Source: Arenicellales bacterium (GTDB lineage: Bacteria; Pseudomonadota; Gammaproteobacteria; Arenicellales; JAJDZL01). Taken from it: DNA of 64,000 bases. This document shows, piece by piece, positions 22,044 to 38,986 of this stretch. Numbering within the stretch: position 1 is the first letter of the stretch; each line of letters starts with the position of its first letter. The notes beneath the pieces were generated by a model. It worked only from the letters and a program-made list of their open reading frames with translations. It ran no database searches and had not been told where the DNA came from. The translations under genes and the position numbers were made by a program. The stretch is from NCBI GenBank assembly GCA_965200425.1, contig CBDAUA010000001.1, forward strand, positions 304,812 through 368,811, given 5' to 3'.

Positions 22044-22222
22044 TTATCAGTCTTCAGTTTTATCGGTCGATTCTAACTTAATTGTAATGAATCTGTTGAC
22101 TCGCAAGAATGAATATAAATTGCAGTTTATAGTTGTCGCTCGAAAACAAAAGCGTTGCTCTATTGGGTGGCGTGCTGTCGATAGCTATTCCGCCTATACA
22201 TTCATCGGCATTGTAAAAGACC

Positions 22223-22252
22223 ATGAATTGACCCATAATGAATTGACCCATA
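22223..22252. repeat. Two tandem copies of a 15-bp unit, ATGAATTGACCCATA
   Basis: The unit was read directly at 22223..22237 and 22238..22252, in the spacer between puuD and the first GmrSD-like gene. Confidence 0.9.
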
Positions 22253-22324
22253 GTTACTTAAAAATTTAACGAATTTAAGACATATATCTGTGTTTGATTG
22301 CAACTTTTTCCGAAGCCTCCTCGG

Positions 22325-22343
22325 ATTGACTAAGCGAGTCAAT
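22325..22343. promoter_or_regulatory. 19-bp palindrome ATTGACT-N5-AGTCAAT upstream of GmrSD-like copy 1 (candidate operator/promoter element)
   Basis: The arms are perfect 7-bp inverted repeats with spacer AAGCG, ending 85 nt upstream of the ATG. The left arm contains the -35-like hexamer TTGACT. Confidence 0.45.
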
Positions 22344-22428
22344 TTCTCAATTCCGTAAATTGTTGGTTCAATAGCATTAAATTAGAGTCAAACTGACGTA
22401 TGAACAATTAAAAACTACAGATCATGCC

Positions 22429-24519: not shown

Positions 24520-24545
24520 TAAACTTTGACGAAAGAGCAAGGTTA

Positions 24546-24554
24546 CCCCCCCCC
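24546..24554. repeat. C9 homopolymer tract in the copy 1 / copy 2 spacer
   Basis: The sequence reads GGTTACCCCCCCCCGACAAG here. The equivalent position in the other spacers reads GGTTAAAACCCTCGACAAG. Confidence 0.9.
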
Positions 24555-24613
24555 GACAAGAAAACGTAAGTTTTTTTTGGCGTATGCAGCTCGAAAACCC
24601 ACAATTTCTACGG

Positions 24614-24632
24614 ATTGACTAATAGAGTCAAT
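24614..24632. promoter_or_regulatory. Palindrome ATTGACT-N5-AGTCAAT upstream of copy 2
   Basis: The arms are identical to those upstream of copy 1, with spacer AATAG. TAAATT follows 15 nt after TTGACT. Confidence 0.45.
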
Positions 24633-24716
24633 TTCTAAATTCTTTAAATTGTTGTCTCAATAGCATTTAATTAGAGCCAAACTTATGAATGAATAATTAG
24701 AACTCCAGAGCATGCT

Positions 24717-26807
24717 ATGAAAGCTAATGAAACTAGTTTCCTTAATCTCCTGAAGCAGTCTCCTCAGTTCGTGGTTCCAATCTATCAGCGTACCTATAGT
24801 TGGATGAAGCGAGAATGCGAGCAATTGTGGAACGATATCCTACGCACCGGCAAAGACGATGACATCAAAGTTCACTTCACTGGCTCTATCGTCTACATCC
24901 AAGACGGGCTGTATAACGTAACCAATATGTCACAACTGCTCGTCATTGACGGTCAACAACGCCTAACGACGATTATGCTCATCATTGAAGCATTGGCAAG
25001 ACACTATGACGGTGATGAACCTAGGAAAGCGAACAAGCTGCGTCACTATTACCTCCTTAACCATTTGGAAGACGGAGAGAGTCGATTCAAACTGCTGCTG
25101 ACAGAAACAGACAAGGAGAGCCTGCTTGCACTGTTGGAGCAAAAATCTCTGCCGGATTATCATTCCTATCGGATTAAAGAGAATTTCAGTCTGTTCAAGA
25201 ATTGGATAGGCCAACTCGATCCCATAGAAACCTCGTCACTTCATAAAGGCCTAGAGAAACTTACGATCGTTGACATCTCGCTGGACCGAAGTCACGACAA
25301 TCCACAGCTCATCTTCGAAAGCATGAATTCCACTGGCCGTGATTTAAGCCAAGCTGACTTGATCCGTAATTTCGTTCTAATGGGACTGGAGCCAGCAAAA
25401 CAAAAGTACCTCTACAAAGAACACTGGCGTCCGATGGAAAACACCTTCGGACAGAAAGCAATAAATACTGAATTCGACAGTTACATGAGGTACTATTTGA
25501 CATTCAGAACAGGTATTCTTCCAAACGTTAAGAAAGTATATGAGTCGTTTAAGGCCTACGCGAACTCTTCTGAGAAGCCGAATAACGATGTGGATGCCCT
25601 CGTCAAAGACATCCACACTTACGCGAACTACTACTGCGCGATGGCCCTCGACCAGGAACATGACGACCAACTAGCCTTAGTGTTTCAGGATCTCAGAGGA
25701 CTGAAGGTGAACGCAAGCTTTCCCTTCCTGCTAAAGCTATACGGAGACTACAAGAACGAACACCTCTCGAAAGAAGACTTTATCAGAGCTGTGAGATTAG
25801 TAGAAGCCTACGTTTTCCGACGAGCAGTGTGTGAAATCCCCACGAAAATGCTGCCAAAAATCTTCGAAAACATCGTGCGTACACTCAAAGAGATTTGCGA
25901 CATTCAAACCATAGAAGCACATTTTTTTGGTCTAAGAACTTATAGACGCTTTCCCAGAGACGACGAATTCAAGAACGCACTTCGTACGCGCGATCTTTAC
26001 AATAATCCGAAACGCTGCAAATACTTGTTTCGTCGTCTAGAGAATTACGAGCGTAAAGAAGCAGTACCAGTACATGAGTACACTATCGAACACATCATAC
26101 CCCAAAACGAGAATCTGTCATCGCAGTGGCGAAAAGCACTTGGCGAGGAGTGGGAAACGATTCAGAAGGAATATCTACATACTCTAGGTAACCTCACACT
26201 GACTGGCTACAATTCAGAGTACAGTGATCATTCCTTCTCGAAAAAGCGCGACATGGTCGGCGGATTCAAAGAGAGCCCATTACGTTTGAATAAAGGGCTC
26301 GGTAAACTTGACACTTGGAATGAAGAAATAATTAAGCAACGCGCTGAAGAACTTGCGAATAAGGCTGTGCAAGTCTGGAGGCTACCGGCGGGGAACGTAC
26401 TGGATGACAATGGCACCAATGGCACCTATGACTATCGTTCCGTTGAAGATTACCGGTTTTTGGCTGCCGGCAGTCAAACACGACGGTTATTCGATGAAAT
26501 TCGAAAAGCCATATTGGCACTTGACCCGGGCATTAACATGAAGTTTCTAAAGAGTTACATCTCATTTAGAGCTGAAACTAGTATTGTAAACGTAGTTCCA
26601 CAAATGAATCGCCTACAGTTGTATATTAACTTGCCGTTCCACGAACTAAATGACCCTAGAGGAATAGCTATTGATGTAACAAATCTTGGTCACTGGGGTG
26701 TCGGAGATGTGCGCGTATACCTCGATGATTTAGACGATGTTCGCTACGTTATGAGTTTGGTGAGCCAAGCGTTTGAAAATCAAATAAGCGATGGGATTAT
26801 TGAATAA
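24717..26807 (+). CDS. GmrSD-like type IV restriction nuclease paralog 2
   Basis: The ORF is 696 aa. All motifs are retained (VVPIYQRTYSW, VIDGQQRLT, TIEHIIPQN, LGNLTLTGYNSEYS). Confidence 0.85.
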   Translation: MKANETSFLNLLKQSPQFVVPIYQRTYSWMKRECEQLWNDILRTGKDDDIKVHFTGSIVYIQDGLYNVTNMSQLLVIDGQQRLTTIMLIIEALARHYDGDEPRKANKLRHYYLLNHLEDGESRFKLLLTETDKESLLALLEQKSLPDYHSYRIKENFSLFKNWIGQLDPIETSSLHKGLEKLTIVDISLDRSHDNPQLIFESMNSTGRDLSQADLIRNFVLMGLEPAKQKYLYKEHWRPMENTFGQKAINTEFDSYMRYYLTFRTGILPNVKKVYESFKAYANSSEKPNNDVDALVKDIHTYANYYCAMALDQEHDDQLALVFQDLRGLKVNASFPFLLKLYGDYKNEHLSKEDFIRAVRLVEAYVFRRAVCEIPTKMLPKIFENIVRTLKEICDIQTIEAHFFGLRTYRRFPRDDEFKNALRTRDLYNNPKRCKYLFRRLENYERKEAVPVHEYTIEHIIPQNENLSSQWRKALGEEWETIQKEYLHTLGNLTLTGYNSEYSDHSFSKKRDMVGGFKESPLRLNKGLGKLDTWNEEIIKQRAEELANKAVQVWRLPAGNVLDDNGTNGTYDYRSVEDYRFLAAGSQTRRLFDEIRKAILALDPGINMKFLKSYISFRAETSIVNVVPQMNRLQLYINLPFHELNDPRGIAIDVTNLGHWGVGDVRVYLDDLDDVRYVMSLVSQAFENQISDGIIE

Positions 26808-26900
26808 TAAACTTTGACGAAAGAGCAAGGTTAAAACCCTCGACAAGAAAACGTAGGTTCTTTTTGGCGTATGCAGCTCGAAAACCCACAATTTCTACGG

Positions 26901-26919
26901 ATTGACTAATCGAGTCAAT
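26901..26919. promoter_or_regulatory. Palindrome ATTGACT-N5-AGTCAAT upstream of copy 3
   Basis: The arms are identical to the other copies, with spacer AATCG. Confidence 0.45.
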
Positions 26920-27003
26920 TTCTAAATTCTGTAAATTGTTGGTTCAATAGCATTAAATAAGAGCCAAACTTACGAATGAATAATTAGAACTCCAGAGCAT
27001 GCC

Positions 27004-29088
27004 ATGAAAGCTAATGAAACTAGTTTCCTTAATCTCCTGAAGCAGTCTCCTCAGTTCGTGGTTCCAATCTATCAGCGTACCTATAGTTGGACGAAGCGAG
27101 AATGCGAGCAGTTATGGAACGATATCCTACGCACCGGCAAAGACGATGACATCAAAGCTCACTTCACGGGCTCTATCGTCTACATCCAAGACGGGCTCTA
27201 TAACGTAACGAATATGTCTCAATTGCTCGTCATCGACGGCCAACAACGCCTCACGACAGTTATGCTTATCCTTGAAGCTTTGGCAAGACACTTTGAAGGT
27301 GATGAGTCCAAGAAAGCGGTTAAGCTTCGCCACTATTACCTCCTTAACAATTTGGAAGAGGGAGAGAGTCGATTCAAACTGCTGCTGACAGAAACAGACA
27401 AGGAGAGCCTGCTTGCACTGTTGGAGCAAAATTCTCTTCCGGATAACCACTCCCACCGAATTAAAGAGAATTTCAGACTAATCAAGAAGTGGGTAAGCCA
27501 ACTCGATTCCACAAAAATCTCGTCACTTCACAAAGGCCTGGAGAAACTTACGATCGTTGACATCTCGCTGGACCGAAGTCACGACAACCCACAGCTCATC
27601 TTCGAAAGCATGAATTCGACTGGCCGTGATTTAAGCCAAGCTGACTTGATCCGTAATTTCGTTCTAATGGGACTGGAGCCAGAAAAACAAAAGTACCTCT
27701 ACAAAGAACACTGGCGTCCGATGGAAAACACCTTCGGACAGAAAGCCATAAATACTGATTTCGACAGTTACATGAGGCACTATTTGACATTCAGAACAGG
27801 TGTTCTTCCAAGCGTTAAGAAAGTATATGAGGCGTTTAAGGCCTACGCGAACTCTTTTGAGAAGCAAAAAAACGACGTAGATGCTCTCGTCAAAGACATC
27901 CACACCTACGCGAACTACTACTGCGCGATGGCTCTCGACCAGGAACATGACGACCAGCTAGCTTTAGTGTTTCGGGATCTCAGAGAACTGAAGGTGAACG
28001 CAAGCTTTCCCTTCCTGCTAAAGTTATACGGAGACTACAAGAATGAGTATCTCTCGAAAGAAGACTTTATCAAAGCTGTAAGATTGGTAGAAGCTTATGT
28101 TTTCCGACGAGCAGTGTGTGAAATGCCTACGACAACGCTGCCCAAACTCTTCGAAAACATCGTGCGTACACTCAAAGAAAATTGCGACATTCAAAGCATA
28201 GAGTCACTATTTTTTGGACTACGAACTTATAGACGCTTTCCCAGAGACGACGAATTCAAGAACGCGCTTCGAACGCGCGATCTTTACAATAACCCAAAAC
28301 GCTGTAAATACATTTTTCGTCGTCTGGAGAATTACGAGCGTAAAGAACCGGTACCAGTACATGAGTACACTATCGAACATATCATGCCCCAAAACGAGAA
28401 CCTGTCATCGCAGTGGCGTAAAGCACTTGGTCAAGATTGGGAAATGATTCAGAAGGATTATCTACATACTCTAGGTAACCTCACACTGGCCGGCTACCCT
28501 TCAGATTACAGTGATCGTTCCTTCTTGGAAAAACGCGACAAGGAAGGTGGATTCAGAAAGAGCCAGCTACGGTTGAATAAAGGGCTCAGTAATCTTGACA
28601 CTTGGAATGAAGAATCAATTTTGCAACGCGCTGAAGAACTTGCGAATAAAGCTGCGCAAGTCTGGACATTACCAGCAGGGAGCGTACTGGATGAAATTGA
28701 CACCTATCGCACCTATGACTATCGTTCCGGTTACCGGTTTTTGGATACCGCCAGTCCAACACGACGATTGTTCGATGAAATTCGAAAAGCCGTATTGGCA
28801 CTTGACCCGGGCATTGACATGAAGTTACAAGCACGCTACATCTCATTTGATGCTGAGACTAGAATTGTAGACTTGGTTCCACTACAGAAATGCTTACGGT
28901 TGTATATTAACTTGCCGTTCCACGAACTAAATGACCCTAGAGGAATAGCTATTGATGTAACAAATCTTGGTCGCTGGTGTATCGGAGAAGTGCGCGTCAA
29001 CCTCGATGATTTAGACGATGTTCGCTACGTTATGAGTTTGGTGAGCCAAGCGTTTGAAAATCAAATAAGCGATGGGATTATTGAATAG
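27004..29088 (+). CDS. GmrSD-like type IV restriction nuclease paralog 3
   Basis: The ORF is 694 aa. The motifs are retained (VVPIYQRTYSW, VIDGQQRLT, TIEHIMPQN, LGNLTLAGYPSDYS). Confidence 0.85.
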   Translation: MKANETSFLNLLKQSPQFVVPIYQRTYSWTKRECEQLWNDILRTGKDDDIKAHFTGSIVYIQDGLYNVTNMSQLLVIDGQQRLTTVMLILEALARHFEGDESKKAVKLRHYYLLNNLEEGESRFKLLLTETDKESLLALLEQNSLPDNHSHRIKENFRLIKKWVSQLDSTKISSLHKGLEKLTIVDISLDRSHDNPQLIFESMNSTGRDLSQADLIRNFVLMGLEPEKQKYLYKEHWRPMENTFGQKAINTDFDSYMRHYLTFRTGVLPSVKKVYEAFKAYANSFEKQKNDVDALVKDIHTYANYYCAMALDQEHDDQLALVFRDLRELKVNASFPFLLKLYGDYKNEYLSKEDFIKAVRLVEAYVFRRAVCEMPTTTLPKLFENIVRTLKENCDIQSIESLFFGLRTYRRFPRDDEFKNALRTRDLYNNPKRCKYIFRRLENYERKEPVPVHEYTIEHIMPQNENLSSQWRKALGQDWEMIQKDYLHTLGNLTLAGYPSDYSDRSFLEKRDKEGGFRKSQLRLNKGLSNLDTWNEESILQRAEELANKAAQVWTLPAGSVLDEIDTYRTYDYRSGYRFLDTASPTRRLFDEIRKAVLALDPGIDMKLQARYISFDAETRIVDLVPLQKCLRLYINLPFHELNDPRGIAIDVTNLGRWCIGEVRVNLDDLDDVRYVMSLVSQAFENQISDGIIE

Positions 29089-29181
29089 TAAACTTTGACG
29101 AAAGAGCAAGGTAAAACCCTCGACAAGAAAACGTAGGTTTCTTTTTGGCGTATGCAGCTCGAAAACCCACAATTTCTACGG

Positions 29182-29200
29182 ATTGACTAATCGAGTCAAT
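29182..29200. promoter_or_regulatory. Palindrome ATTGACT-N5-AGTCAAT upstream of copy 4
   Basis: The arms are identical to the other copies, with spacer AATCG. Confidence 0.45.
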
Positions 29201-29284
29201 TTCTAAATTCTGTAAATTGTTGGTTCAATAGCATTAAATTAGAGTCAAACTTACGAATGAACAATTAGAACTCCAGAGCATGCA

Positions 29285-31384
29285 ATGAAAGCAAATGAAA
29301 CTAGTTTCCTTAATCTCCTAAAGCAGTCTCCTCAGTTCGTGGTTCCAATCTATCAACGAACCTATAGTTGGACGAAGCGAGAATGCGAGCAGTTATGGAA
29401 CGATATCCTACGCACCGGCAAAGACGATGACATCAAAGCTCACTTCACTGGCTCTATCGTCTACATCCAAGACGGGCTCTATAACGTAACGAATATGTCT
29501 CAATTGCTCGTCATCGACGGCCAACAACGCCTCACGACGATCATGCTCATCCTTGAAGCTTTGGCAAGACACATTGAAGGTAATGAGCCTAAGAAAGCGG
29601 TTAAGTTGCGCCGCTATTACCTCCTTAACGACTTGGAAGATGGAGAGAGTCGATTCAAACTGCTGTTGACAGAAACAGATAAGGAGAGCCTGCTTGCACT
29701 GTTGGAGCAAAAATCTCTGCCGGATAACCATTCCTACCGGATTAAAGAGAATTTCAGACTATTCAAGAATTGGGTAGGAAAACTCGATTCCACAAAAATT
29801 TCATCACTTCACAAAGGCCTAGAGAAACTTACGATCGTTGACATCTCGCTGGACCGAAGTCACGACAACCCACAGCTCATCTTCGAAAGCATGAATTCGA
29901 CTGGCCGTGATTTAAGCCAAGCTGACTTGATCCGCAATTTCGTTCTAATGGGACTGGAGCCAGAAAAACAAAAGAACCTCTACAAAGAACACTGGCGTCC
30001 AATGGAAAACACCTTCGGGCAGAAAGCCATAAACACTAATTTCGACAGTTACATGAGGTACTATTTGACATTCAGAACAGGTGTCCTTCCAAGAGTTAAG
30101 AAAGTATATGAGGCGTTTAAGGACTACGCTAACTCCTTTGAGAAGCTGAAAAACGATGTGGATGCCCTCGTCAAAGACATCCACACTTACGCGAACTACT
30201 ACTGCGCGATGGCTCTCGACCAGGAACATGACGACAAACTAGCTATAGTGTTTCGGGATCTCAGAGGACTGAAGGTGAACGCAAGCTTTCCCTTCCTGCT
30301 AAAGCTATACGGAGACTACAAGAACGAGCATCTCTCGAAAGAAGACTTTATCAAAGCTGTCAGATTGGTAGAAGCGTATGTTTTCCGACGAGCAGTGTGT
30401 GAAATCCCCACGACTACGATGCCCAAACTCTTCGAGAACATCGTGCGTACACTTAAAGAAAATTGCGACATTCAAAGCATAGAGTCACTATTTTTTGGAC
30501 TACGAACTTATAGACGCTTTCCCAGAGACGACGAATTCAAGAACGCGCTTCGTACGCGCGATCTTTACAATAACCCAAAACGCTGCAAATACTTGTTACA
30601 TCGTCTGGAGAATTACGAGCGTAAAGAACCAGTACCAGTACATGAGTACACTATCGAACACATCATGCCCCAAAACGAGAATCTGTCATCGCAGTGGCGT
30701 AAAGCCCTTGGCGAAGAGTGGGAAATGATTCAGAAGGATTATCTACATACTCTAGGTAACCTCACACTGACTGGCTACAATTCAGAGTACAGTGATCATT
30801 CCTTCTTGGAAAAGCGCGACATGGAAGGTGGATTCAAAGAGAGCCCATTGCGGTTGAATAAAGGGATCGGTAAACTTGACACTTGGAATGAAGAAACAAT
30901 TAAGCAACGCGCTGAAGAACTTGCGAATAAGGCTATGCAAGTCTGGAGACTACCGGCGGGGAACGTACTGGATGACAATGGCACCGAAGGCTCCAATGCC
31001 ATCTATGAAAATCGTTCCGTTGAAGACTACCGGTTTTTGGCTACCGGCAGTCCAACACGACTGTTGTTCGATGAGATTCAAAAAGCCGTATTGGCACTTG
31101 ACCCGGGCATTGACATGGTGTTACTAAAGACCCACGTTTCATTTAGAGCTGAGAGTAGTATTGTCGACGTAGTTGCACAAATGAATCGCCTACAGTTGTA
31201 TATTAACTTGCCGTTCCATGAACTAAATGACCCTCGAGGAATAACTTATGATGTAACAAATGTTGGTCACTGGGGTGTCGGAGATGTGCGCGTCAACCTC
31301 GATGATTTAGACGATATTCGCTACGTTATGAGTTTGGTGAGCCAAGCGTTTGAAAATCAAATAAGCGATGGGATTATTGAATAA
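29285..31384 (+). CDS. GmrSD-like type IV restriction nuclease paralog 4
   Basis: The ORF is 699 aa. The motifs are retained (VVPIYQRTYSW, VIDGQQRLT, TIEHIMPQN, LGNLTLTGYNSEYS). Confidence 0.85.
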   Translation: MKANETSFLNLLKQSPQFVVPIYQRTYSWTKRECEQLWNDILRTGKDDDIKAHFTGSIVYIQDGLYNVTNMSQLLVIDGQQRLTTIMLILEALARHIEGNEPKKAVKLRRYYLLNDLEDGESRFKLLLTETDKESLLALLEQKSLPDNHSYRIKENFRLFKNWVGKLDSTKISSLHKGLEKLTIVDISLDRSHDNPQLIFESMNSTGRDLSQADLIRNFVLMGLEPEKQKNLYKEHWRPMENTFGQKAINTNFDSYMRYYLTFRTGVLPRVKKVYEAFKDYANSFEKLKNDVDALVKDIHTYANYYCAMALDQEHDDKLAIVFRDLRGLKVNASFPFLLKLYGDYKNEHLSKEDFIKAVRLVEAYVFRRAVCEIPTTTMPKLFENIVRTLKENCDIQSIESLFFGLRTYRRFPRDDEFKNALRTRDLYNNPKRCKYLLHRLENYERKEPVPVHEYTIEHIMPQNENLSSQWRKALGEEWEMIQKDYLHTLGNLTLTGYNSEYSDHSFLEKRDMEGGFKESPLRLNKGIGKLDTWNEETIKQRAEELANKAMQVWRLPAGNVLDDNGTEGSNAIYENRSVEDYRFLATGSPTRLLFDEIQKAVLALDPGIDMVLLKTHVSFRAESSIVDVVAQMNRLQLYINLPFHELNDPRGITYDVTNVGHWGVGDVRVNLDDLDDIRYVMSLVSQAFENQISDGIIE

Positions 31385-31753
31385 TAAACTTTGACGAAAG
31401 AGCAAGGTTAAAACCCTCGACAAGAAAACGTAGGCTTTTCTGGCGTACGCAGCTCGAAAATTATTTCACATTGACACATCGATCAATTCGTCGAAGGCAG
31501 GTTTCCACTCCATTTCAACTCACACATAGATCGGGTCATTCGTACATTGCCTGATTTCGTAGGACCACTATCTTATGTCGGTGTGAAGTTAATAGAGCGG
31601 ATACGATTTAGAAATGTCCACTCGTACTCATGTGGCAACTTTATAGTCTCGTAACTAGCCCACCAATTTGCCATAAATCGCACGTTGTAAAGTAATTTAC
31701 TCCCTAAATTGAATTTGCCTCTGACTGCTATCGGGTGCAAAAATAGATTAATT
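31385..31753. repeat. ~370-bp conserved 3' tail, copy A (paralogous to 34053..34413)
   Basis: It can be aligned by eye to 34053..34413 with scattered substitutions and small indels. Only its first ~80 nt are present after copies 1-3. Confidence 0.9.
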
Positions 31754-31910
31754 TTTTGTTGAGACTTTGCAAGTGATATAAGTTCCAATAAAAATACGAT
31801 AGATAATAAATGAATCCAACTTACTTGAATATTTCGTGTGAGTTAGTCCTACCCTTAATATCCCGTTGTGTGAATCCCAAACGTTTCTCTAAGACTCAAA
31901 AATACATTGG
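31754..31910. repeat. Copy of the island's right-flank sequence (paralogous to 37298..37453)
   Basis: TTTTTGTTGAGACTTTGCAAGTGA...ACGATAGATAATAAATGAATCCAACTTACTTGAATATTTCGTGTGAGTTAGTC...CCCAAACGTTTCT aligns with TTTTTGGGACATTGCAAGTGA...ACGATAGAGAATAAATGAATCCAACTTACTTGGATATTTCGTGTGATTTAGTC...CCCAAACGTTTCT. Confidence 0.85.
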
Positions 31911-31952
31911 ATTCAAAATTACGAATGAACAATTAGAATTCCAGAGTAGGCC

Positions 31953-34052
31953 ATGAAAGCAAATGACGCTAGTTTCCTTAGTCTCCTGAAGCAATCTCTT
32001 CAGTTCGTGGTTCCAATCTATCAACGTGCCTATAGTTGGACGGAGCGGGAATGCGGGCAGTTGTGGGACGATATCCTACGCACCGGCAAAGACGATGACA
32101 TGAAATCTCACTTTATTGGCTCTATCGTCTACATCCAAGACGGGATCTATCGTGCAACAAAAATGTCACAATTGCTTGTAATTGACGGCCAACAACGCCT
32201 CACGACAATCATGCTCATCCTTGAAGCTTTGGCAAAACACATTGAAGGTAATGAGCCTAAGAAAGGGATTGAGCTGCGCCACGATTACCTACTTAACCAT
32301 TTGGAAGTTGGAGAGAGTCGATTCAAACTGCTGCTGACAGAAACAGACAAGGATAGCCTGCTTGCAATATTGGAGCAAAAATCTCTACCGGATAACCATT
32401 CCCACCGGATTAAAGAGAATTTCAAACTATTCAAGAAGTGGGTAGGCAAACTCGATTCCACAAAAATTTCATCACTTCACAATGGCCTAGAGAAACTTAC
32501 GATCGTTGACATCTCGCTGGACCGAAGTCACGACAACCCACAGCTCATCTTCGAAAGCATGAATTCGACTGGCCGTGATTTAAGCCAAGCTGACTTGATC
32601 CGCAATTTCGTTCTAATGGGACTGGAGCCAGAAAAACAAAAGAACCTCTACAAAGAACACTGGCGTCCGATGGAAAATGCCTTCGGGCAGAAGGCCATAA
32701 ATACTGATTTCGACAGTTACATGAGGTACTATTTGACGTTCAGAACAGGTGTTCTTCCAAGAGTTAAGAAAGTATACGAGGCATTTAAGGCCTACGCGAA
32801 TTTTTCTGGGAAGCTGAAAAATGATGTGGATGCCCTCGTCAAAGACATCCACACTTACGCGAACTACTACTGCGCGATGGCTCTCGACCAGGAACATGAC
32901 GACAAACTAGCTTTAGTGTTTCGGGATCTCAGAGGACTGAAGGTGAATGCAAGCTTTCCCTTCCTGCTAAAGCTATACGGAGACTACAAGAATGAGCATC
33001 TCTCGAAAGAAGACTTTATCAAAGCTGTGAGATTGGTAGAAGCATATGTTTTCCGACGAGCAGTGTGTGAATTCCCCACGAAATCGCTACCCAAAGTCTT
33101 CGAAAACATCGGGTATACACTCAAAGAAAATTGTGACATTCAAAGCATAGAAGAACTTTTTTTTGGACTAAGAACTTATAGACGATTTCCTAGAGACGAC
33201 GAATTCAAGAACGCGCTTCGTACGCGCGAGCTTTACAATAACCCAAAACGCTGTAAATACTTGTTACGTCGTCTAGAGAATTACGGGCGTAAAGAACCAG
33301 TACCAGTACACGAGTACACTATCGAACACATCATGCCTCAAAATGAGAATCTGTCATCGCAGTGGCGAAAAGCACTTGGCAAAGAGTGGGAAAAGATTCA
33401 GAAGGATTATCTACATACTCTAGGTAACCTCACACTGACCGGCTACAATTCAGAGTACAGTGATCATTTCTTCTTGGAAAAGCGCGACATGGAAGGTGGA
33501 TTCAAAGAGAGCCCATTACGGTTGAATAAAGGGCTCGGTAAACTTGACACTTGGAATGAAGAAACAATTAAGCAACGCGCTGAAGAACTTGCGAATAAGG
33601 CTGTGCAAGTCTGGAGACTACCGGCGGGGAACGTACTGGATGACAATGGTACCGAAGGCTCCAATGCCATCTATGAATATCGTGCCGTTGAAGATTACAA
33701 GTTTTTGGCTACCGGCAGTCCAACACGACTGTTATTCGATGAAATTCAAAAAGCCGTATTGGCACTTGACCCGGGAATTGACAGGAAGTTCCATACGCGC
33801 TACGTCTCATTTGATGCTGAAACTAGAATTGTAGACTTAGTTCCACTAAAGAAATGCCTACGATTGTATATTAACGTACCGTTCCATGAACTAAATGATC
33901 CTAGAGGAATAGGTATTGATGTGACAAATCGTCATACCTATGGTGTCGGAGATGTGCGCGTCAACCTCGATGATTTAGACGATGTTCGCTACGTTATGAG
34001 TTTGGTAAACCAAGCGTTTGAAAATCAAATTAGCGATGGAATTATTGAATAA
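31953..34052 (+). CDS. GmrSD-like type IV restriction nuclease paralog 5
   Basis: The ORF is 699 aa. The motifs are retained (VVPIYQRAYSW, VIDGQQRLT, TIEHIMPQN, LGNLTLTGYNSEYS). This copy lacks the upstream palindrome. Confidence 0.85.
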   Translation: MKANDASFLSLLKQSLQFVVPIYQRAYSWTERECGQLWDDILRTGKDDDMKSHFIGSIVYIQDGIYRATKMSQLLVIDGQQRLTTIMLILEALAKHIEGNEPKKGIELRHDYLLNHLEVGESRFKLLLTETDKDSLLAILEQKSLPDNHSHRIKENFKLFKKWVGKLDSTKISSLHNGLEKLTIVDISLDRSHDNPQLIFESMNSTGRDLSQADLIRNFVLMGLEPEKQKNLYKEHWRPMENAFGQKAINTDFDSYMRYYLTFRTGVLPRVKKVYEAFKAYANFSGKLKNDVDALVKDIHTYANYYCAMALDQEHDDKLALVFRDLRGLKVNASFPFLLKLYGDYKNEHLSKEDFIKAVRLVEAYVFRRAVCEFPTKSLPKVFENIGYTLKENCDIQSIEELFFGLRTYRRFPRDDEFKNALRTRELYNNPKRCKYLLRRLENYGRKEPVPVHEYTIEHIMPQNENLSSQWRKALGKEWEKIQKDYLHTLGNLTLTGYNSEYSDHFFLEKRDMEGGFKESPLRLNKGLGKLDTWNEETIKQRAEELANKAVQVWRLPAGNVLDDNGTEGSNAIYEYRAVEDYKFLATGSPTRLLFDEIQKAVLALDPGIDRKFHTRYVSFDAETRIVDLVPLKKCLRLYINVPFHELNDPRGIGIDVTNRHTYGVGDVRVNLDDLDDVRYVMSLVNQAFENQISDGIIE

Positions 34053-34413
34053 TAATCTTTGACGAAAGAGCAAGGTTAAAACTCTCGACAAGAAAACGTA
34101 GGCTTCTCTGGCGTACGCAGCTCGAAAATTATTTCACATCGATCAATTCGTGGAAGGTAGGCTTCAACTCCATTCGAATTTACAGATAGATCAGGTCATT
34201 CGTACATTGCCTGATCTCGTAGGACCACAAGCTTAAGTTGGAGCGGAGTAAATAGAGCGGATACGATTTAGGGATATCTACTCGAACTCATGTGGCAACT
34301 ATATAGTCTCGTACCTAGCCCACCAATTTGCCATAAATCGCATGTTGTAAAGTAATTTACTCCCTAAGTTCAATTTGCCTCTGACTGCTGTCCGGTGCAA
34401 AAATAAATTAATT
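34053..34413. repeat. ~360-bp conserved 3' tail, copy B
   Basis: It is paralogous to 31385..31753. The homology breaks at about 34414..34420, where the R-M/IS segment begins. Confidence 0.9.
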
Positions 34414-34787
34414 CTGGGGATGCGTCTATCTTAACAGGGTCGTTATTTTTCAATTCTTTTGGAGGCTTAGGTTTCATTAGTTCATCACCTTCACAAAAGT
34501 TAAGTTTTGAACTATCGTGCATTCTATTCAAAATTACCTGATGGCTAGTGAAGCAGCAGGTTGTTTCGTTGATTCTCTCGAATAACCCGATTCAATCGAC
34601 TCTGTTCAACTCTTGTTGGTGTTTGTTCACTAGGACTAATAGAAGAAGTTAGTTTAAGCATTGCTCTTGCCTTATATGGCATTCCCTCGTAATAAATTTA
34701 ATGGCAATTGGAAAAGAGTATCAATTTTAATAGAGCATCCTTAATATTTGAAAGAGTCGGTAAATTCGCCTTCTTGGTGTCTTTTGC

Positions 34788-35492
34788 TTATATTAGGGCA
34801 GCTTCACTTGAATCAACATTTAATTCAATCTCATCAGCAGTAAGATGATAATACCCACTTTGGAAATTCTGAATCGAAATTTTTCCTTTCTCTCCTGAAA
34901 TAGATTCGCTAGTTTGAACAAACGAACTCTCCCTACACTGAGCTTTTCTTGCAAATTCACTAGAAATTTTTTTGAAATCTTCAGGAGTATTAAATTTTAT
35001 TTCTATTAACCTAATTGCCGACATATGCGAGGACATTTCAACTCCGAGTTTACTTTCTAAATGAGCATAAGATTCAATCGCTTTGAATGCCAGTGATTTC
35101 CCCGTAATCTGCTCATAATTCCAATGTAATGCACTAGATCTGAATGAGATCAAACGGCTTAATTGATTAGAGAGATGATTCAAATCGAAAACTTGATTTG
35201 TAATCTTGCCTTCTCTGGAACTTACAGATGCATAATCATAGTAAGAAAGTATTACATACACTTCAAGAAGACTGATAAAGGAAACTGTATCCCACTGTAG
35301 CCAATCTCGGTCACCATTTTTACCTTCATCTTTTACGATTGGAATGATGGTAACTTTTCTAATACTTGAGTTTAGCGAATCGTAAACTCTGGCAAATGGG
35401 AACGACCTTGTTCTTTTTGGAGAAACCCACTTGCTTGCTGAAAACATTTGACTTTCTCCATCAGTAAATATGAAATTTGATTTGCCTTGCAT
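34788..35492 (-). CDS. Putative type II restriction endonuclease (assigned by position only)
   Basis: This 234-aa ORF lies 96 bp downstream of, and is co-oriented with, the DNA methyltransferase gene. I could not recognise a catalytic motif with confidence. Confidence 0.4.
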   Translation of the reverse strand: MQGKSNFIFTDGESQMFSASKWVSPKRTRSFPFARVYDSLNSSIRKVTIIPIVKDEGKNGDRDWLQWDTVSFISLLEVYVILSYYDYASVSSREGKITNQVFDLNHLSNQLSRLISFRSSALHWNYEQITGKSLAFKAIESYAHLESKLGVEMSSHMSAIRLIEIKFNTPEDFKKISSEFARKAQCRESSFVQTSESISGEKGKISIQNFQSGYYHLTADEIELNVDSSEAALI

Positions 35493-35588
35493 GTCTTGAA
35501 GATTTCTTATATCTACTTTCGGGGATATTTGAACGGCAAAGTGTAGGCGAATAGACTACTTTTTGTATTGACCCAAGAAGTTTTATTG

Positions 35589-36440
35589 TCATTTTTTGCT
35601 TACCTGCCTTTCAATCAATTCCAGTTGAACATCATCTTCAAGTAAATCAATATTCCTATTCAGTTTACCGAGCCCAAGTTCATTTACAATCGTCTCTTGC
35701 AACTCATACTTAATCTCTATTCCTATGCTGTTTCTGCCTAACTTACTTGCAACTTTCATAGTGGTACCACTTCCAGCAAAAGGATCTAAAACGGTTTCAC
35801 CCTTATATGAAAATAACGAAATTATTCGATAAGGTAATTCCTCTGGAAATGCAGCTATGCCTTTCTCAAATTTCGAATTGGGGATTACATTGGTCATTTC
35901 CCAGAGTGTCTTGTACCATCCATTTGCCTGAAATTCTTTCAATTCCACTTTGGAAGAATTTTTTTCATCAACGCTCTTGGATTTGTAGTTGAATCGGTTT
36001 TTTTGAAAAATTAATATGCTTTCTAGCAAGTTATCTGGATAAAAATACATCGGGTATGGATGCTGTAGCATTACTCCACTTCGACCCCTAATGCGCAAGT
36101 ACCCATCTGGTTTTTTCCAGATGATTCGATCTCTATACCTAAACCCAGCACCTTGAAATATCTTAGTAGCATCTGCTACGATCGGATATTTTTCTCCTTT
36201 CACCAGCATGTCATCTATATTTACAACAGCGACTCGTCCATCCTGTAAAACTCTGAATGTTTCTTTCGCAAAACTTTCTATCAACTCAAGATAAGATTCG
36301 TAACTTGAAAATAGCTCCTCGTAATCATACGGAGCATTGAAGTACGGTGGTGAAGTAAGCATGAGATGAACTGATTCATCTTCAATCTCAACCATAGAAG
36401 CACAATCACCAATTATTAGCTTGTGATGGGTAGATTTCAT
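35589..36440 (-). CDS. DNA methyltransferase, beta-class N4-cytosine / N6-adenine (N-4/N-6 DNA methylase family)
   Basis: Catalytic motif IV SPPY (LMLTSPPYFNAPYD) lies near the N-terminus. The AdoMet motif I (LDPFAGSGTTMKVA) lies near the C-terminus. This is the circular permutation typical of beta-class amino-methyltransferases. Confidence 0.85.
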   Translation of the reverse strand: MKSTHHKLIIGDCASMVEIEDESVHLMLTSPPYFNAPYDYEELFSSYESYLELIESFAKETFRVLQDGRVAVVNIDDMLVKGEKYPIVADATKIFQGAGFRYRDRIIWKKPDGYLRIRGRSGVMLQHPYPMYFYPDNLLESILIFQKNRFNYKSKSVDEKNSSKVELKEFQANGWYKTLWEMTNVIPNSKFEKGIAAFPEELPYRIISLFSYKGETVLDPFAGSGTTMKVASKLGRNSIGIEIKYELQETIVNELGLGKLNRNIDLLEDDVQLELIERQVSKK

Positions 36441-36575
36441 CTCAACAAAAGTATTTCATTATCGAATCTAGGTTCAGTGACAGTATTTGCTTGTTCTATT
36501 TGATCACGTGTGTCTTTCAGGGAAATCACAAAAAATCTTGTGTCGTATTTCTTTCGTGTTTGAGACAGAATACCT

Positions 36576-37192
36576 TCACTCTATAACTAATGTTTCATGC
36601 TTCGGTTGCTTTCCAACCGTGCTGGAAAAAACAGTTTTAATCTGCTCGATCGTTTCTATATGACGGAGATTGTGACTGCTCGCAAATTCGTTGATATAAC
36701 GATTGAGATGCTTGACACTCATTTTGTGATAAGTGCCTCTATAAGCTCTTTTGAGCATTGTCTTTGACGGATTCACCAACGGAGTGTTTGACCTAACTGG
36801 TGGTCATAGCCAGACAGTTTCTCGTAGGATTTGAATTCATCTGAGTTGGCAACAGAACATTCTGCTACGTAGTCTTGTATGAAACTATGCAGGGGATTAC
36901 GCTTGGTCTCCCTTTCTTTAGCACCAATAGCAGTAGTCTTACCAACACCGCCTCGACCAGCATTGAGTTTCTTATCCCAATGCTTGTTATTTTCAGTCCT
37001 ACTCATATAAGTTTCGTCAACTTCAACAGTTCCACTGAATTTACCATCGCTGTCATTCCAACGACTCTCATTGAACCACTGTTCAGTGAGTTCGTCATTG
37101 GGAAATCGCTGTAATAGTTCGATAAGACTGATGCTTTCTCGGTAGTATATTCCAGGTGCTTTGTTCGCGATTTGATATGTTCCAATCCTCAA
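36576..37192 (-). pseudogene. Decayed IS1595-family (ISXO2-like) transposase, split into two overlapping frames and internally deleted
   Basis: The 139-aa piece contains GTVEVDETYMS...GRGGVGKTTAIGAKERE and SDEFKSYEKLSGYDHQ. The 67-aa piece contains MLKRAYRGTYHKMSVKHLNRYINEFASSHN. These correspond to conserved IS1595 DDE-domain blocks (VEVDETY.GG, TD....Y, KR...GTYH.VS.KHL.RY..EF.FR.N). The Zn-ribbon and central parts are missing, and the combined length is far below the ~300 aa expected. Confidence 0.7.
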
Positions 37193-37297
37193 CTGATTGC
37201 ATGGGTAATTGTAACAGATTATCTATAATAAATCAATAAGTTAGTCGACTTATATTCCAATTTTAAGAAACAGGTATATAACTTACAATTCCTCTGA

Positions 37298-37453
37298 TAT
37301 TTTTTGGGACATTGCAAGTGAATTAACTCTCGATAAACATACGATAGAGAATAAATGAATCCAACTTACTTGGATATTTCGTGTGATTTAGTCATACCTT
37401 TAAAATCCCATTCTGTGAAACCCAAACGTTTCTTTACGACTTAGAAATTCAAT
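37298..37453. repeat. Right-flank sequence of the island (paralogous to 31754..31910)
   Basis: See the feature at 31754..31910. Confidence 0.85.
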
Positions 37454-37462
37454 AGTGCGATT

Positions 37463-38986
37463 ATGAATTTAAGTTCCAATTTTTTTGCGGAGCTTCAAAC
37501 CGTAATGCAACAAACACCCAATAGTGTGTTTCTTGAATTACAAGACGGAACAGCTCTAACTTACCAGGACGCAAATGTACTGTCTGCACGACTTGCCAAT
37601 CGTCTAGAGTCAATCGGATTGTTGGCAGGTGATCGAGTAACCTGCCAATGCGAAAAATCATATAGAGTAGTCATTCTCTATCTTGCATGTTTGCGTGCGG
37701 GTCTAGTGTTCCACCCTCTCAATTCAGCATATACGCTAAGTGAACTTGAATATTTTTTGATCGATGCAGAACCGTCTTTAATCGTTTGTGAATCTGATCA
37801 ATTTTCAGCAACAAAAGAATTAGCAAATAGAGTCGGAATTAGTCAAATTATGACACTAGATTTGGAAAGTGAAGACTCAGTTTGGGTTGGACTCGAGCGA
37901 TTCGCTGATGAATTTGATCCAGTGTTTCGAAAAAAAGATGACTTAGCGTTATTGATTTATACCTCGGGAACAACTGGTAAACCAAAGGGAGCAATGATCA
38001 CCCAAGAAAATATTTCATCAAACACAGCTAGCTTGGTTGACATCTGGCACTGGCGTTCGGATGATGTCTTGTTGCATGTTCTTCCATTGTTTCATGTACA
38101 TGGACTTTGCGTTGGCTTACATTGTCCTATGTTGCGTGGATCCTGCATCCTATTTCACGATAAATTTTCAGTACAAAACTCATTGAGTCAAATTTCAAAC
38201 GCCACAATAATGATGGCAGTACCAACGATTTACACTCGCTTGCTGTCCCAGCCAGAGCTAACGCGTTCACTTTGTCAATCTATTCGGCTGTTTATTTCGG
38301 GTTCTGCGCCACTGCTCCCTGAAACTTTTGCGGAGTTTGAACAAAGAACTGGTCTTCGCATACTAGAACGATATGGTATGACCGAAGCTCAGATGATCAC
38401 TTCCAATCCAGTCGATGGAGCGCGAGTCCCAGGAACTGTAGGGTATTCCCTTCCAGATATTCGGCTACGAGTTGTCGAAGAAAATGGAAAACTTATTGCT
38501 TCAGGACAAACGGGGATTCTAGAGATCAAAGGTCCCAATGTGTTTGCGGGTTATTGGAGAAATCCAGAAGCGAGTAAAGAAGCATTTCGTAGAGACGGCT
38601 ACTTCATTACCGGAGATTTCGCCACGATTGATAACTCCAATCGAGTAACCATTGTTGGAAGACATAGTGATTTAATCATTTCAGCTGGCCTGAATGTGTA
38701 CCCGAGAGAAGTGGAAATTGCACTCAATAATCTACCATGGATAGTTGATTCAGCTGTGTTTGGCGTACCACATTCTGATTTGGGTGAAGCAGTGGTCGCC
38801 GCAGTCATCCAGCGAGATGAAGAAAAATCGATTTGCGAGATTAAAGCTGAACTCAAGTCCCAAATCTCGGAATTTAAAATTCCGAAAAAGGTAATTTTTA
38901 TGCAAGATTTCCCTCGAAACGCGATGGGAAAAATACAAAAGAATCGATTACGAGAAATCTACAAATCAATCTTTATAAATGAGTAA
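37463..38986 (+). CDS. matB: Malonyl-CoA synthetase-like AMP-dependent acyl-CoA ligase
   Basis: It carries the AMP-binding motif (LLIYTSGTTGKPKGAM). Its N-terminal region (ILYLACLRAGLVFHPLNSAYTLSELEYFLIDAEPSLIVC) closely parallels rhizobial MatB as I recall it. The ORF is 507 aa. Confidence 0.7.
   Translation: MNLSSNFFAELQTVMQQTPNSVFLELQDGTALTYQDANVLSARLANRLESIGLLAGDRVTCQCEKSYRVVILYLACLRAGLVFHPLNSAYTLSELEYFLIDAEPSLIVCESDQFSATKELANRVGISQIMTLDLESEDSVWVGLERFADEFDPVFRKKDDLALLIYTSGTTGKPKGAMITQENISSNTASLVDIWHWRSDDVLLHVLPLFHVHGLCVGLHCPMLRGSCILFHDKFSVQNSLSQISNATIMMAVPTIYTRLLSQPELTRSLCQSIRLFISGSAPLLPETFAEFEQRTGLRILERYGMTEAQMITSNPVDGARVPGTVGYSLPDIRLRVVEENGKLIASGQTGILEIKGPNVFAGYWRNPEASKEAFRRDGYFITGDFATIDNSNRVTIVGRHSDLIISAGLNVYPREVEIALNNLPWIVDSAVFGVPHSDLGEAVVAAVIQRDEEKSICEIKAELKSQISEFKIPKKVIFMQDFPRNAMGKIQKNRLREIYKSIFINE

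What the first reader, a model, noticed from the sequence alone, without database searches (positions are those of the whole stretch)
34401..37311. Built-in empty-site versus filled-site comparison shows the R-M/IS segment is a later insertion into the array tail
In the paralogous copy the sequence runs uninterrupted: ...GGTGCAAAAATAGATTAATTTTTTGTTGAGACTTTGCAAGTGA... (31733..31777). After copy 5 the same sequence is split. GGTGCAAAAATAAATTAATTCTGGGGA ends at 34420, and ...TTTTTGGGACATTGCAAGTGA resumes at about 37301. The ~2.9 kb in between carries the methyltransferase, the putative endonuclease and the IS1595-type remnant. A similar short motif, TGGG(G)A, sits at both junctions and could be a target-site duplication. 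The transposase remnant lies at the right end of the insert. This fits IS-mediated delivery of the R-M pair after the duplication that produced copy 5.
Basis: seen in the sequence. Interest (0 to 1): 0.55.

Follow-up and report, generated by a model that had tools for sequence, protein, structure and literature searches.

The report
Decayed IS-borne methylase cassette insertion
A 2.9-kb foreign segment (a dead IS1595-type transposase gene, an intact DNA methyltransferase gene and a broken restriction-enzyme gene) was inserted behind the last gene of a five-copy array of type IV restriction genes after that copy arose by duplication. This is a tidy but ordinary example of how restriction-modification genes move and decay.

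Summary
The 568-bp spacer after array copy 4 (31385-31952) matches 34053-34413 at 88% (E 2e-136) and 37300-37451 at 84% (E 2e-43). The two matches abut within 1 nt in the uninterrupted copy, so 34414-37299 (2,886 bp, unique in the window, GC 34-37% against 43-47%) is an insert.

All genes in the insert are on the minus strand:
- an IS1595-family transposase remnant, about 198 of about 320 aa, with the Zn-ribbon/HTH deleted and a frameshift;
- an intact 283-aa beta-class SPPY methyltransferase;
- a restriction-endonuclease pseudogene, not a putative endonuclease. It has a frameshift, a TAA at the catalytic Glu and a second stop.

The proposed TGGG(G)A target duplication is not supported. The right-hand copy is simply flank sequence.

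IS-mediated delivery does gain comparative support. A relative of this transposase (44% identity) sits at three places as a 4,054-bp transporter IS with 24-bp inverted repeats (GGGAATTATAACC...), 8-bp A/T-rich duplications and methylase plus nuclease cargo downstream of the transposase gene. The window has GAGGAATTGTAA 5-7 nt inside the right junction. No second inverted repeat and no clean 8-bp duplication survive.

No close strain exists in any collection, so the direction of the event rests on the internal comparison alone. Verdict: a new member of a known kind, of low interest.

The parts
29285..31384 (+). GmrSD-DUF5655 paralog 4 (699 aa), followed by the uninterrupted long spacer
   Evidence: ORF list. 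Paralogs carry Pfam GmrSD_N + GmrSD_C + DUF5655. 92.0% nt and 88.4% aa identity to copy 5, dS 0.18.
31385..31952 (.). Uninterrupted ('empty-site') long spacer after copy 4. The point that corresponds to the insertion is 31753/31755. Nt 1-76 equal the 3' tail found in all short spacers. Nt 519-562 equal the sequence just upstream of every paralog start.
31953..34052 (+). GmrSD-DUF5655 paralog 5 (699 aa), the last copy of the array
34053..34413 (.). Left flank of the insertion, homologous to 31385-31753 (88.3%)
34414..37299 (.). Inserted foreign segment, 2,886 bp (2,879 bp, 34416-37294, if bounded by IS-type termini). Unique in the window. The R-M part has GC 0.34-0.37.
34545..35592 (-). Type II restriction endonuclease pseudogene (family of about 353 aa, PADLOC REase_II PDLC03572). 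ATG at 35592 overlaps the methylase stop (ATGA). Frameshift near 35520-35530. TAA at 34788-34790 replaces the catalytic Glu (LI*AKD against LIEGKH). Second stop at 34698-34700. Original stop at 34545-34547.
35589..36440 (-). Intact beta-class N6_N4 DNA methyltransferase, 283 aa, with motif IV SPPY and motif I FAGSGTT. 72% identical to the methylase paired with an endonuclease homologue in L163.
36576..37192 (-). IS1595-family transposase remnant in two frames (36773-37192 and 36576-36779). About 198 of about 320 residues remain. The Zn-ribbon/HTH (about 100 aa) and parts of the DDE core are deleted and the start codon is lost.
37283..37294 (-). Probable remnant of the IS left inverted repeat: GAGGAATTGTAA on the minus strand, against GGGAATTATAA in relatives. 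It lies about 120 nt upstream of the transposase N-terminus and 5-7 nt inside the junction.
37300..37451 (.). Right flank, homologous to 31755-31906 (84.2%). It ends 12 nt before the ATG of the acyl-CoA synthetase gene (37463).

Best explanation
Shown: the last GmrSD paralog and its about 570-bp 3' flank were duplicated in tandem. The unit ran from about 50 bp upstream of the paralog ATG to 12 bp upstream of the acyl-CoA synthetase ATG, and the junction falls at 31903-31906. Later, a 2.9-kb foreign segment landed in an A/T-rich stretch (GATTAATT|TTTTG) of the distal flank copy only.

Inferred as most likely: the segment was one transposable unit, a transporter IS of the IS1595 family (ISNwi1-like ends) organised as IRL, leader, transposase, methyltransferase, endonuclease. 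Its own DDE transposase inserted it, as happens with relatives that carry methylase/nuclease cargo between 24-bp inverted repeats and make 8-bp duplications in A/T-rich targets.

Shown: the element has since died in place. The transposase lost about 120 codons and its reading frame. The endonuclease acquired a frameshift and two stops, one at the catalytic Glu. The methyltransferase is still intact.

Inferred: the locus now works only as a solitary, probably N4-cytosine (SPPY), methyltransferase. The distal inverted repeat and the 8-bp duplication have eroded beyond recognition.

My sub-probabilities are 0.9 for insertion after the duplication, 0.55 for delivery as a single IS1595-type unit, and 0.6 for the methylase being retained by selection.
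For: Junction: flank homologies at E 2e-136 and 2e-43 abut within 1 nt in the uninterrupted copy. The insert is unique and of low GC.

Transposase remnant: its N-terminus aligns from residue about 3 of intact 315-327-aa IS1595 transposases, so the IS 5' end faces the right junction.

Relatives: P0172 (44% identity) lies at three different sites inside an identical 4,054-bp unit. That unit has perfect 24-bp TIRs (GGGAATTATAACCTTGACTAAACC), 8-bp TSDs (AAAAATAT, ATTTTTTA, CTTTTTAA) and the order tnp, EcoRI-like methylase, GmrSD_N-HNH nuclease. P0134 is followed by an N6_N4 methylase-T5orf172 gene. The closest intact relative, P0123 (51%), has GGGAATTATATAC 94 nt upstream of its ATG.

Window terminus: GAGGAATTGTAA lies in the right orientation about 120 nt upstream of the tnp N-terminus. 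About 0.04 such matches (2 mismatches or fewer) are expected in a region of that size.

Architecture and target: the window has the same co-oriented tnp, M, R order, with an ATGA overlap of M and R as in homologous R-M pairs. The target is A/T-rich like the relatives' targets.

Decay. Intact methylase.

Literature: R-M and solitary M genes linked to IS elements, including IS1595-family elements, are on record (PMC2853133, its refs 31-34). Transporter ISs are described in PMC3129680, citing Siguier 2009.
Against: No inverted repeat can be shown between the two ends of the insert, nor between the right end and the tnp-M gap; alignment scores are at shuffle level. The left end offers only GGGGAT.

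There is no exact 8-bp duplication. The best candidate (TTAATTCT at 34408-34415 and TGATATTT at 37295-37302, against TTAATTTT in the uninterrupted copy) needs a mismatch in one copy and a mismatch plus an indel in the other, in low-complexity sequence.

The IRL match is short and was chosen after seeing the relatives.

The transposase remnant has GC 0.42 and the R-M genes 0.34-0.37, which could indicate separate origins.

The tnp-M gap is 135 nt, whereas cargo follows tnp within 0-15 nt in the relatives.

The same R-M family in two other contexts has no IS1595 neighbour.

No genome lacking or sharing the insert is available.
Confidence: 0.55

Rival explanations
1. The 2.9-kb segment is a random fragment of donor DNA, an R-M cassette that happened to lie beside an already dead IS. 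It was integrated by illegitimate, microhomology-level end joining, and the IS played no part.
For: The junction is flush with at most 1-2 nt of shared sequence (TT) and no demonstrable duplication. There are no terminal inverted repeats. GC differs between the IS remnant and the R-M genes. Five nucleotides (TGATA) lie between the IRL-like terminus and the flank.
Against: The segment ends within 5-7 nt of an IS-type terminus and 131 nt after the last cargo gene, which is what a transposable unit would look like. Relatives of this transposase demonstrably move methylase/nuclease cargo. The target is A/T-rich like theirs.
Confidence: 0.27
2. There were two separate events at the same spot. An IS1595 element and an R-M cassette arrived independently, in either order, and later deletions removed the intervening target sequence and the IS end facing the cassette.
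For: The GC contrast of 0.42 against 0.34-0.37. The 135-nt gap between tnp and M. A TTGAGAC look-alike of the target at 36558-36566, right after the transposase stop.
Against: That look-alike is not significant: 27% of random 160-nt tiles score as well. No IRR is found in 36441-36600. Two insertions plus exact loss of all intervening target sequence is less parsimonious than one event.
Confidence: 0.1
3. The R-M/IS segment was already present when the flank was duplicated and was later deleted precisely from the proximal copy (31.7 kb).
For: It cannot be excluded by outgroup comparison, because no related genome carries the array.
Against: A scarless deletion would be needed whose ends coincide within 1 nt with the ends of the foreign gene cassette. 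No direct repeat of 6 nt or more is available to mediate it.
Confidence: 0.05
4. Assembly artefact: the contig, a 606.8-kb metagenome-type assembly, is chimeric or mis-joined inside a repetitive array.
For: The locus is a tandem array of 2.3-2.7-kb units at about 90% identity, and the source proteins are singletons from one contig.
Against: Both junctions lie in unique, diverged sequence (88% and 84% to the other copy). Each flank continues colinearly into copy 5 and into the syntenic acyl-CoA synthetase gene.
Confidence: 0.03

Closest known systems
Transporter ISs (tIS) of the IS1595 family, ISNwi1-like subgroup (Siguier, Gagnevin and Chandler 2009, cited in PMC3129680 and PMC2853133). A concrete comparator was found here: the 4,054-bp unit in L173/L174/L175.
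   Same: IS1595-type DDE transposase (PF12762). Cargo genes (methyltransferase, then nuclease) lie downstream of and co-oriented with tnp. There is a GG(G)AATT(A/G)TAA terminus upstream of tnp, insertion into an A/T-rich target, and a reconstructed size of about 3.2 kb, within the range I recall for passenger-carrying members.
   Different: Here only one end is recognisable and no clean 8-bp TSD survives. The transposase is a wreck without its Zn-ribbon. The cargo is a classical type II M-R operon rather than an EcoRI-like methylase plus GmrSD_N-HNH. Transposase identity to the comparator is only 44%.
IS-linked or transposon-like mobile forms of restriction-modification systems (Furuta, Abe and Kobayashi 2010, PMC2853133; Takahashi et al. 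2011, PMC3031569)
   Same: R-M genes linked to a transposase homologue. The insertion is revealed by comparing a filled site with an empty site. GC is deviant.
   Different: The empty site here is a paralogous copy within the same genome rather than another strain. The 8-bp duplication and long flanking inverted repeats of their Xanthomonas and Neisseria examples are not seen, and neither is their 'long target duplication' class.
Solitary (orphan) methyltransferases derived from decayed type II R-M systems (my own knowledge of the literature, e.g. Seshasayee et al. 2012)
   Same: The methylase is intact beside a disabled cognate endonuclease gene. The M-R overlap (ATGA) is still visible.
   Different: Activity, specificity and any regulatory role are untested. 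The endonuclease remnant is still almost full length, so the decay is fairly recent.

Membership tests
IS1595-family insertion sequence / transporter IS | DDE transposase with the ISXO2-like/IS1595 catalytic domain (PF12762, NF033547) | tested here: met
   PF12762 at E 3.7e-8 and 6e-7 on the two ORF fragments. NF033547 matches, below its cutoff because the gene is fragmented. 48-51% identity to intact 315-327-aa transposases.
IS1595-family insertion sequence / transporter IS | N-terminal Zn-ribbon (PF12760) and an intact reading frame, i.e. a potentially active element | tested here: not met
   About 100 residues spanning the Zn-ribbon/HTH are deleted. There are further deletions in the DDE core, a frameshift at 36773-36779 and no start codon. 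This is a remnant, not a live IS.
IS1595-family insertion sequence / transporter IS | Terminal inverted repeats at both ends | tested here: inconclusive
   One end is probable: GAGGAATTGTAA (minus strand, 37283-37294) against GGGAATTATAA in L173-L175 and L082; chance expectation is about 0.04. No partner was found at the left junction or in 36441-36600.
IS1595-family insertion sequence / transporter IS | 8-bp target-site duplication | tested here: inconclusive
No exact duplication exists and no shared direct repeat of 6 nt or more. A degenerate candidate, TTAATTCT / TGATATTT against the empty-site TTAATTTT, is compatible but lies in low-complexity sequence.
IS1595-family insertion sequence / transporter IS | Passenger genes inside the element, downstream of tnp | tested here: inconclusive
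   The architecture matches: tnp, M and R are co-oriented, and relatives demonstrably carry such cargo within their TIRs. Without the second end, inclusion of M-R inside the element is inferred, not shown.
Type II restriction-modification system | DNA methyltransferase with intact catalytic and AdoMet motifs | tested here: met
   PF01555 at E 3e-47 covering 1-219 of 221. PADLOC MTase_II PDLC03353 at E 6e-73. SPPY and FAGSGTT are present. 72% and 67% identity to methylases paired with endonuclease homologues.
Type II restriction-modification system | Intact cognate restriction endonuclease | tested here: not met
   Homologues are about 353 aa (3,617 hits; PADLOC REase_II at E 2.5e-104 for P0002). 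The window copy has a frameshift near codon 22, a TAA at the Glu of the E-x-K motif and a second stop.
Type II restriction-modification system | Methylation and cleavage activity, and recognition sequence | not testable with these tools
   No match to a solved structure. Specificity cannot be inferred from sequence here.
R-M insertion with long target duplication (Kobayashi group class) | Direct duplication of more than 30 bp of target flanking the R-M unit, with no mobility gene | tested here: not met
   The flanks abut within 1 nt in the uninterrupted copy, and a transposase remnant is present.

The most novel reading that the evidence does not exclude
This clade of IS1595 transposases (GGGAATTAT ends, A/T-rich 8-bp targets) is a dedicated shuttle for methylase-plus-nuclease defence cargo. 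It seeds defence islands such as this GmrSD array tail. The surviving SPPY methyltransferase has been co-opted by the host, for instance as immunity against re-invasion by the same R-M or as an epigenetic mark tolerated by the neighbouring type IV enzymes, rather than simply not yet having decayed.
Probability: 0.15. Interest if true: 0.4.

Novelty: new member of a known kind. Interest (0 to 1): 0.25.

Why it matters
The finding adds little new principle. R-M genes are known to ride on or beside IS elements and to decay into solitary methylases.

The locus is a clean worked example for three reasons. A within-genome paralogous copy serves as the empty site. The event can be ordered relative to a dated duplication (dS about 0.18). 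The three genes of the insert show three different stages of decay.

The by-product may be more useful: a well-delimited 4,054-bp IS1595-type transporter IS carrying a methylase and a GmrSD_N-HNH nuclease at three sites. It shows that this transposase clade moves defence cargo.

Tried and rejected
1. Strains lacking the insert. All window proteins tested are singletons, or absent, in the 15-billion-protein collection (exact look-ups failed). A 23-mer conserved in both spacer copies is absent from metagenome contigs. The best genome relatives (Arenicellales MAGs, 58-70% aa) have no GmrSD array at the syntenic site. The best GmrSD relatives in metagenomes are 60% identical or less and sit in other contexts. 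The outgroup test is therefore impossible with these data.

2. Inverted repeats between the insert ends, or between the right end and the tnp-M gap. Scores are at shuffle level.

3. TIRs of the two closest intact relatives (L081, L082) by up/down alignment. Nothing rose above shuffles. Only the multi-copy element of P0172 gave clean ends.

4. TGGG(G)A as a TSD. Rejected, because the right copy is flank.

5. A 'TTGAGAC' target look-alike next to the transposase stop (36558-36566), as evidence for an independent IS insertion. Not significant: 27% of random tiles score as well.

6. Endonuclease homologues on plasmids: no match. Solved structures: no match. Transposase on plasmids: only about 30% identity.

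7. Rfam and tRNA scans found nothing in or near the insert. Promoter and terminator scans were at chance level.

8. The two contexts of homologous R-M pairs examined have no IS1595 neighbour.
Full report
**Observation.**
- Window 22429-34052 holds five tandem paralogs (696-699 aa, + strand) with GmrSD_N, GmrSD_C and DUF5655 domains.
- Copies 1-3 are followed by spacers of about 197 bp. Copy 4 is followed by a 568-bp spacer (31385-31952).
- blastn of that spacer against the window gives nt 1-369 = 34053-34413 (88.3%, E 2.4e-136) and nt 371-522 = 37300-37451 (84.2%, E 1.6e-43) (alignments).
- The sequence after copy 5 is therefore the same spacer, split by 34414-37299 (2,886 bp). The two halves abut within one nucleotide in the uninterrupted copy.
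- The insert has no other copy in the window. Its R-M part has GC 0.34-0.37, against 0.43-0.47 in the array genes.
The break is at 34413/34414, not 34420.

**Anatomy of the insert.** All genes are on the minus strand; they are listed here from right to left.

1. *IS1595-family transposase remnant (36576-37192).*
   - Pfam PF12762 and NCBIfam NF033547 match two ORF fragments.
   - Aligned with intact relatives of 315-327 aa (48-51% identity at best), its N-terminus starts at about their residue 3.
   - About 100 residues covering the Zn-ribbon/HTH are gone, further pieces of the DDE core are missing, there is a frameshift, and no start codon remains.

2. *Intact 283-aa methyltransferase (35589-36440).*
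   - PF01555 matches at E 3e-47.
   - Motif IV is SPPY and motif I is FAGSGTT. From general knowledge of beta-class enzymes, SPPY suggests N4-cytosine specificity.
   - It is 72% and 67% identical to the methylases that sit directly upstream of endonuclease homologues in L163 and L168.

3. *Endonuclease pseudogene.*
   - In the window the gene starts at ATG 35592, overlapping the methylase stop (ATGA, as in the homologous pairs).
   - It changes frame near 35520-35530.
   - It has TAA where homologues have the Glu of LIEGKH (34788-34790), and a second stop at 34698-34700.
   - It remains recognisable down to its original stop at 34545-34547.
   - It is a pseudogene, so the module is now a solitary methylase.

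A rough calculation of my own bears on this. At least eight disabling lesions lie in about 1.75 kb of tnp plus R. About four would therefore be expected in the 852-nt methylase gene if it were neutral, and it has none. This suggests, but does not prove, selection for the methylase.

**Context and order of events.**
- The genome is an Arenicellales-like gammaproteobacterium. The flanking acyl-CoA synthetase (37463-38986) is 70, 59 and 58% identical to those of three Arenicellales MAGs, with conserved synteny on both sides.
- In those genomes the urate-oxidase-like gene (window 20832-22043) and the synthetase are about 195 bp (L003), 1.4 kb (L002) or 4.2 kb (L001) apart, with unrelated genes between them.
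- The whole 15.4-kb GmrSD array plus insert is therefore lineage-specific content of a variable intergenic spot.
- The long spacer consists of three parts: the 76-nt 3' tail common to all copies, about 440 nt of unique sequence whose last 152 nt are the region immediately upstream of the synthetase gene, and the about 45 nt that precede every paralog start.
- Copy 5 therefore arose by tandem duplication of a 2.67-kb unit, running from about 50 bp upstream of a paralog ATG to 12 bp upstream of the synthetase ATG. The junction is at 31903-31906.
- Copies 4 and 5 differ by 8% in nt (dS 0.18). The flank halves differ by 12% and 16%. The duplication is old, and the insertion is younger than it.

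**Insertion or deletion?**
- The alternative is an ancestral insert that was precisely deleted from the proximal copy.
- That would need a scarless deletion whose ends coincide, within 1 nt, with the ends of a foreign gene cassette. No direct repeat of 6 nt or more exists at those ends.
- I put it at about 5%.
- No outgroup can settle the matter. The proteins are singletons, a conserved spacer 23-mer is absent from metagenomes, and neither genome nor metagenome relatives carry the array.

**Mechanism.**
The right-hand TTGGGAC is the counterpart of TTGAGAC in the uninterrupted copy, whereas the left-hand CTGGGGA is insert.
- There is no significant inverted repeat between the two ends, or between the right end and the tnp-M gap.
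- Taken alone, these results would argue against transposition. Relatives of the transposase change the picture:
  - P0172 (44% identity) occurs at three sites with different neighbours (L173, L174, L175), inside an identical 4,054-bp unit. The unit is bounded by perfect 24-bp inverted repeats (GGGAATTATAACCTTGACTAAACC) and by 8-bp duplications (AAAAATAT, ATTTTTTA, CTTTTTAA). It carries, downstream of and co-oriented with tnp, an EcoRI-like methylase, a GmrSD_N-HNH nuclease and small ORFs.
  - P0134 is followed by an N6_N4 methylase-T5orf172 gene.
  - P0122 is followed by a SocA_Panacea gene.
  - The closest intact relative, P0123, has GGGAATTATATAC 94 nt upstream of its ATG.
- This clade therefore consists of transporter ISs of the kind described for the IS1595 family (Siguier et al. 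2009, as cited in PMC3129680). Furuta et al. (PMC2853133) cite the same work for R-M and solitary M genes linked to ISs.
- In the window, the minus strand reads GAGGAATTGTAA at 37283-37294. That is the right orientation, about 120 nt upstream of the transposase N-terminus and 5-7 nt inside the junction. About 0.04 matches of this quality are expected in a region of that size.
- The gene order tnp, M, R and the A/T-rich target (GATTAATT|TTTTG) also fit.
- Four things are missing or awkward:
  - There is no second inverted repeat; the left end offers only GGGGAT.
  - There is no clean 8-bp duplication. TTAATTCT / TGATATTT against TTAATTTT is compatible but unconvincing.
  - The tnp-M gap is 135 nt.
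  - The IS remnant has a higher GC than the cargo.
- My estimates are about 0.55 for delivery as one IS1595-type unit, about 0.27 for illegitimate integration of a donor fragment, and about 0.1 for two separate events.

**Comparison with what is known, and novelty.**
- The closest known things are passenger-carrying IS1595-family elements, the IS-linked or transposon-like mobile forms of R-M systems catalogued by Furuta et al. (PMC2853133; in vivo IS-linked movement in PMC3031569), and solitary methylases left by decayed R-M systems.
- The locus passes the transposase-domain and methylase tests.
- It fails the 'live IS' and 'intact endonuclease' tests.
- It is inconclusive on TIR and TSD (see the membership table).
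- It is a new, decayed member of a known kind.
- Its only unusual aspect is methodological: the empty site is supplied by a paralogous copy in the same genome.
- Interest is low (0.25).

**Dead ends.** These are listed under 'tried and rejected'. In particular, no comparative genome could be found, TIR searches in L081 and L082 failed, and a target look-alike beside the transposase stop proved to be at chance level.

Noticed in passing
window 22429-34052: Five tandem GmrSD_N+GmrSD_C+DUF5655 paralogs are 89-92% identical in nt but only 82-89% in aa (dS 0.17-0.22, dN/dS 0.27-0.48; the DUF5655 tail is fastest at 0.73). None of the 80 metagenome loci holding the best relatives (52-60% aa) carries a second close copy; the only second hit, in L085, is 26% identical and on the opposite strand. 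A five-copy diversifying array of this type IV-like enzyme looks unusual and may be more interesting than the insert.
   Followed up: partly
window 22044-37462; L003 9805-10001; L002 8599-10001; L001 5825-10001: The whole array plus insert (15.4 kb) fills the gap between a urate-oxidase-N-like gene and an acyl-CoA synthetase gene. These two genes are about 195 bp apart in one Arenicellales MAG and are separated by unrelated genes (fatty-acid hydroxylase; TauE, DUF4189) in two others. The gap is a variable spot, not a conserved defence island.
   Followed up: partly
window 31755-31952 and 37300-37462: The duplication that made copy 5 carried along the 152 bp lying immediately upstream of the acyl-CoA synthetase gene. 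Copy 5 therefore sits behind a second copy of that gene's upstream region and lacks most of the upstream block of about 106 bp shared by copies 1-4. The duplication junction (31903-31906) shows about 4 nt of overlap.
   Followed up: partly
window 24546-24554: A C9 homopolymer in the spacer after copy 1 replaces the sequence AAAACCCTC found in the other spacers. It is a possible slippage-prone tract in the 3' tail of copy 1.
   Followed up: no
L173 6924-10977; L174 6924-10977; L175 1387-5440: A 4,054-bp IS1595-family transporter IS lies at three different sites. It has perfect 24-bp TIRs (GGGAATTATAACCTTGACTAAACC) and 8-bp TSDs (AAAAATAT, ATTTTTTA, CTTTTTAA). Its cargo is an EcoRI-like methylase, a GmrSD_N-HNH nuclease, two small ORFs and a 109-aa ORF. 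Its neighbours include AbiEii, DpnII-MboI and NACHT genes, so it lands in defence-rich regions.
   Followed up: yes
L172 182-2487; L081 3001-4457: Other relatives of the transposase are followed within 11-15 nt by an N6_N4 methylase-T5orf172 fusion gene (L172) or by a SocA_Panacea gene (L081). This suggests that cargo-carrying is common in the clade. The element ends were not determined.
   Followed up: no
window 34370-34531 (minus strand): A 53-aa ORF spans the left junction, so it is part flank and part insert. It has no family match and is most likely meaningless.
   Followed up: partly
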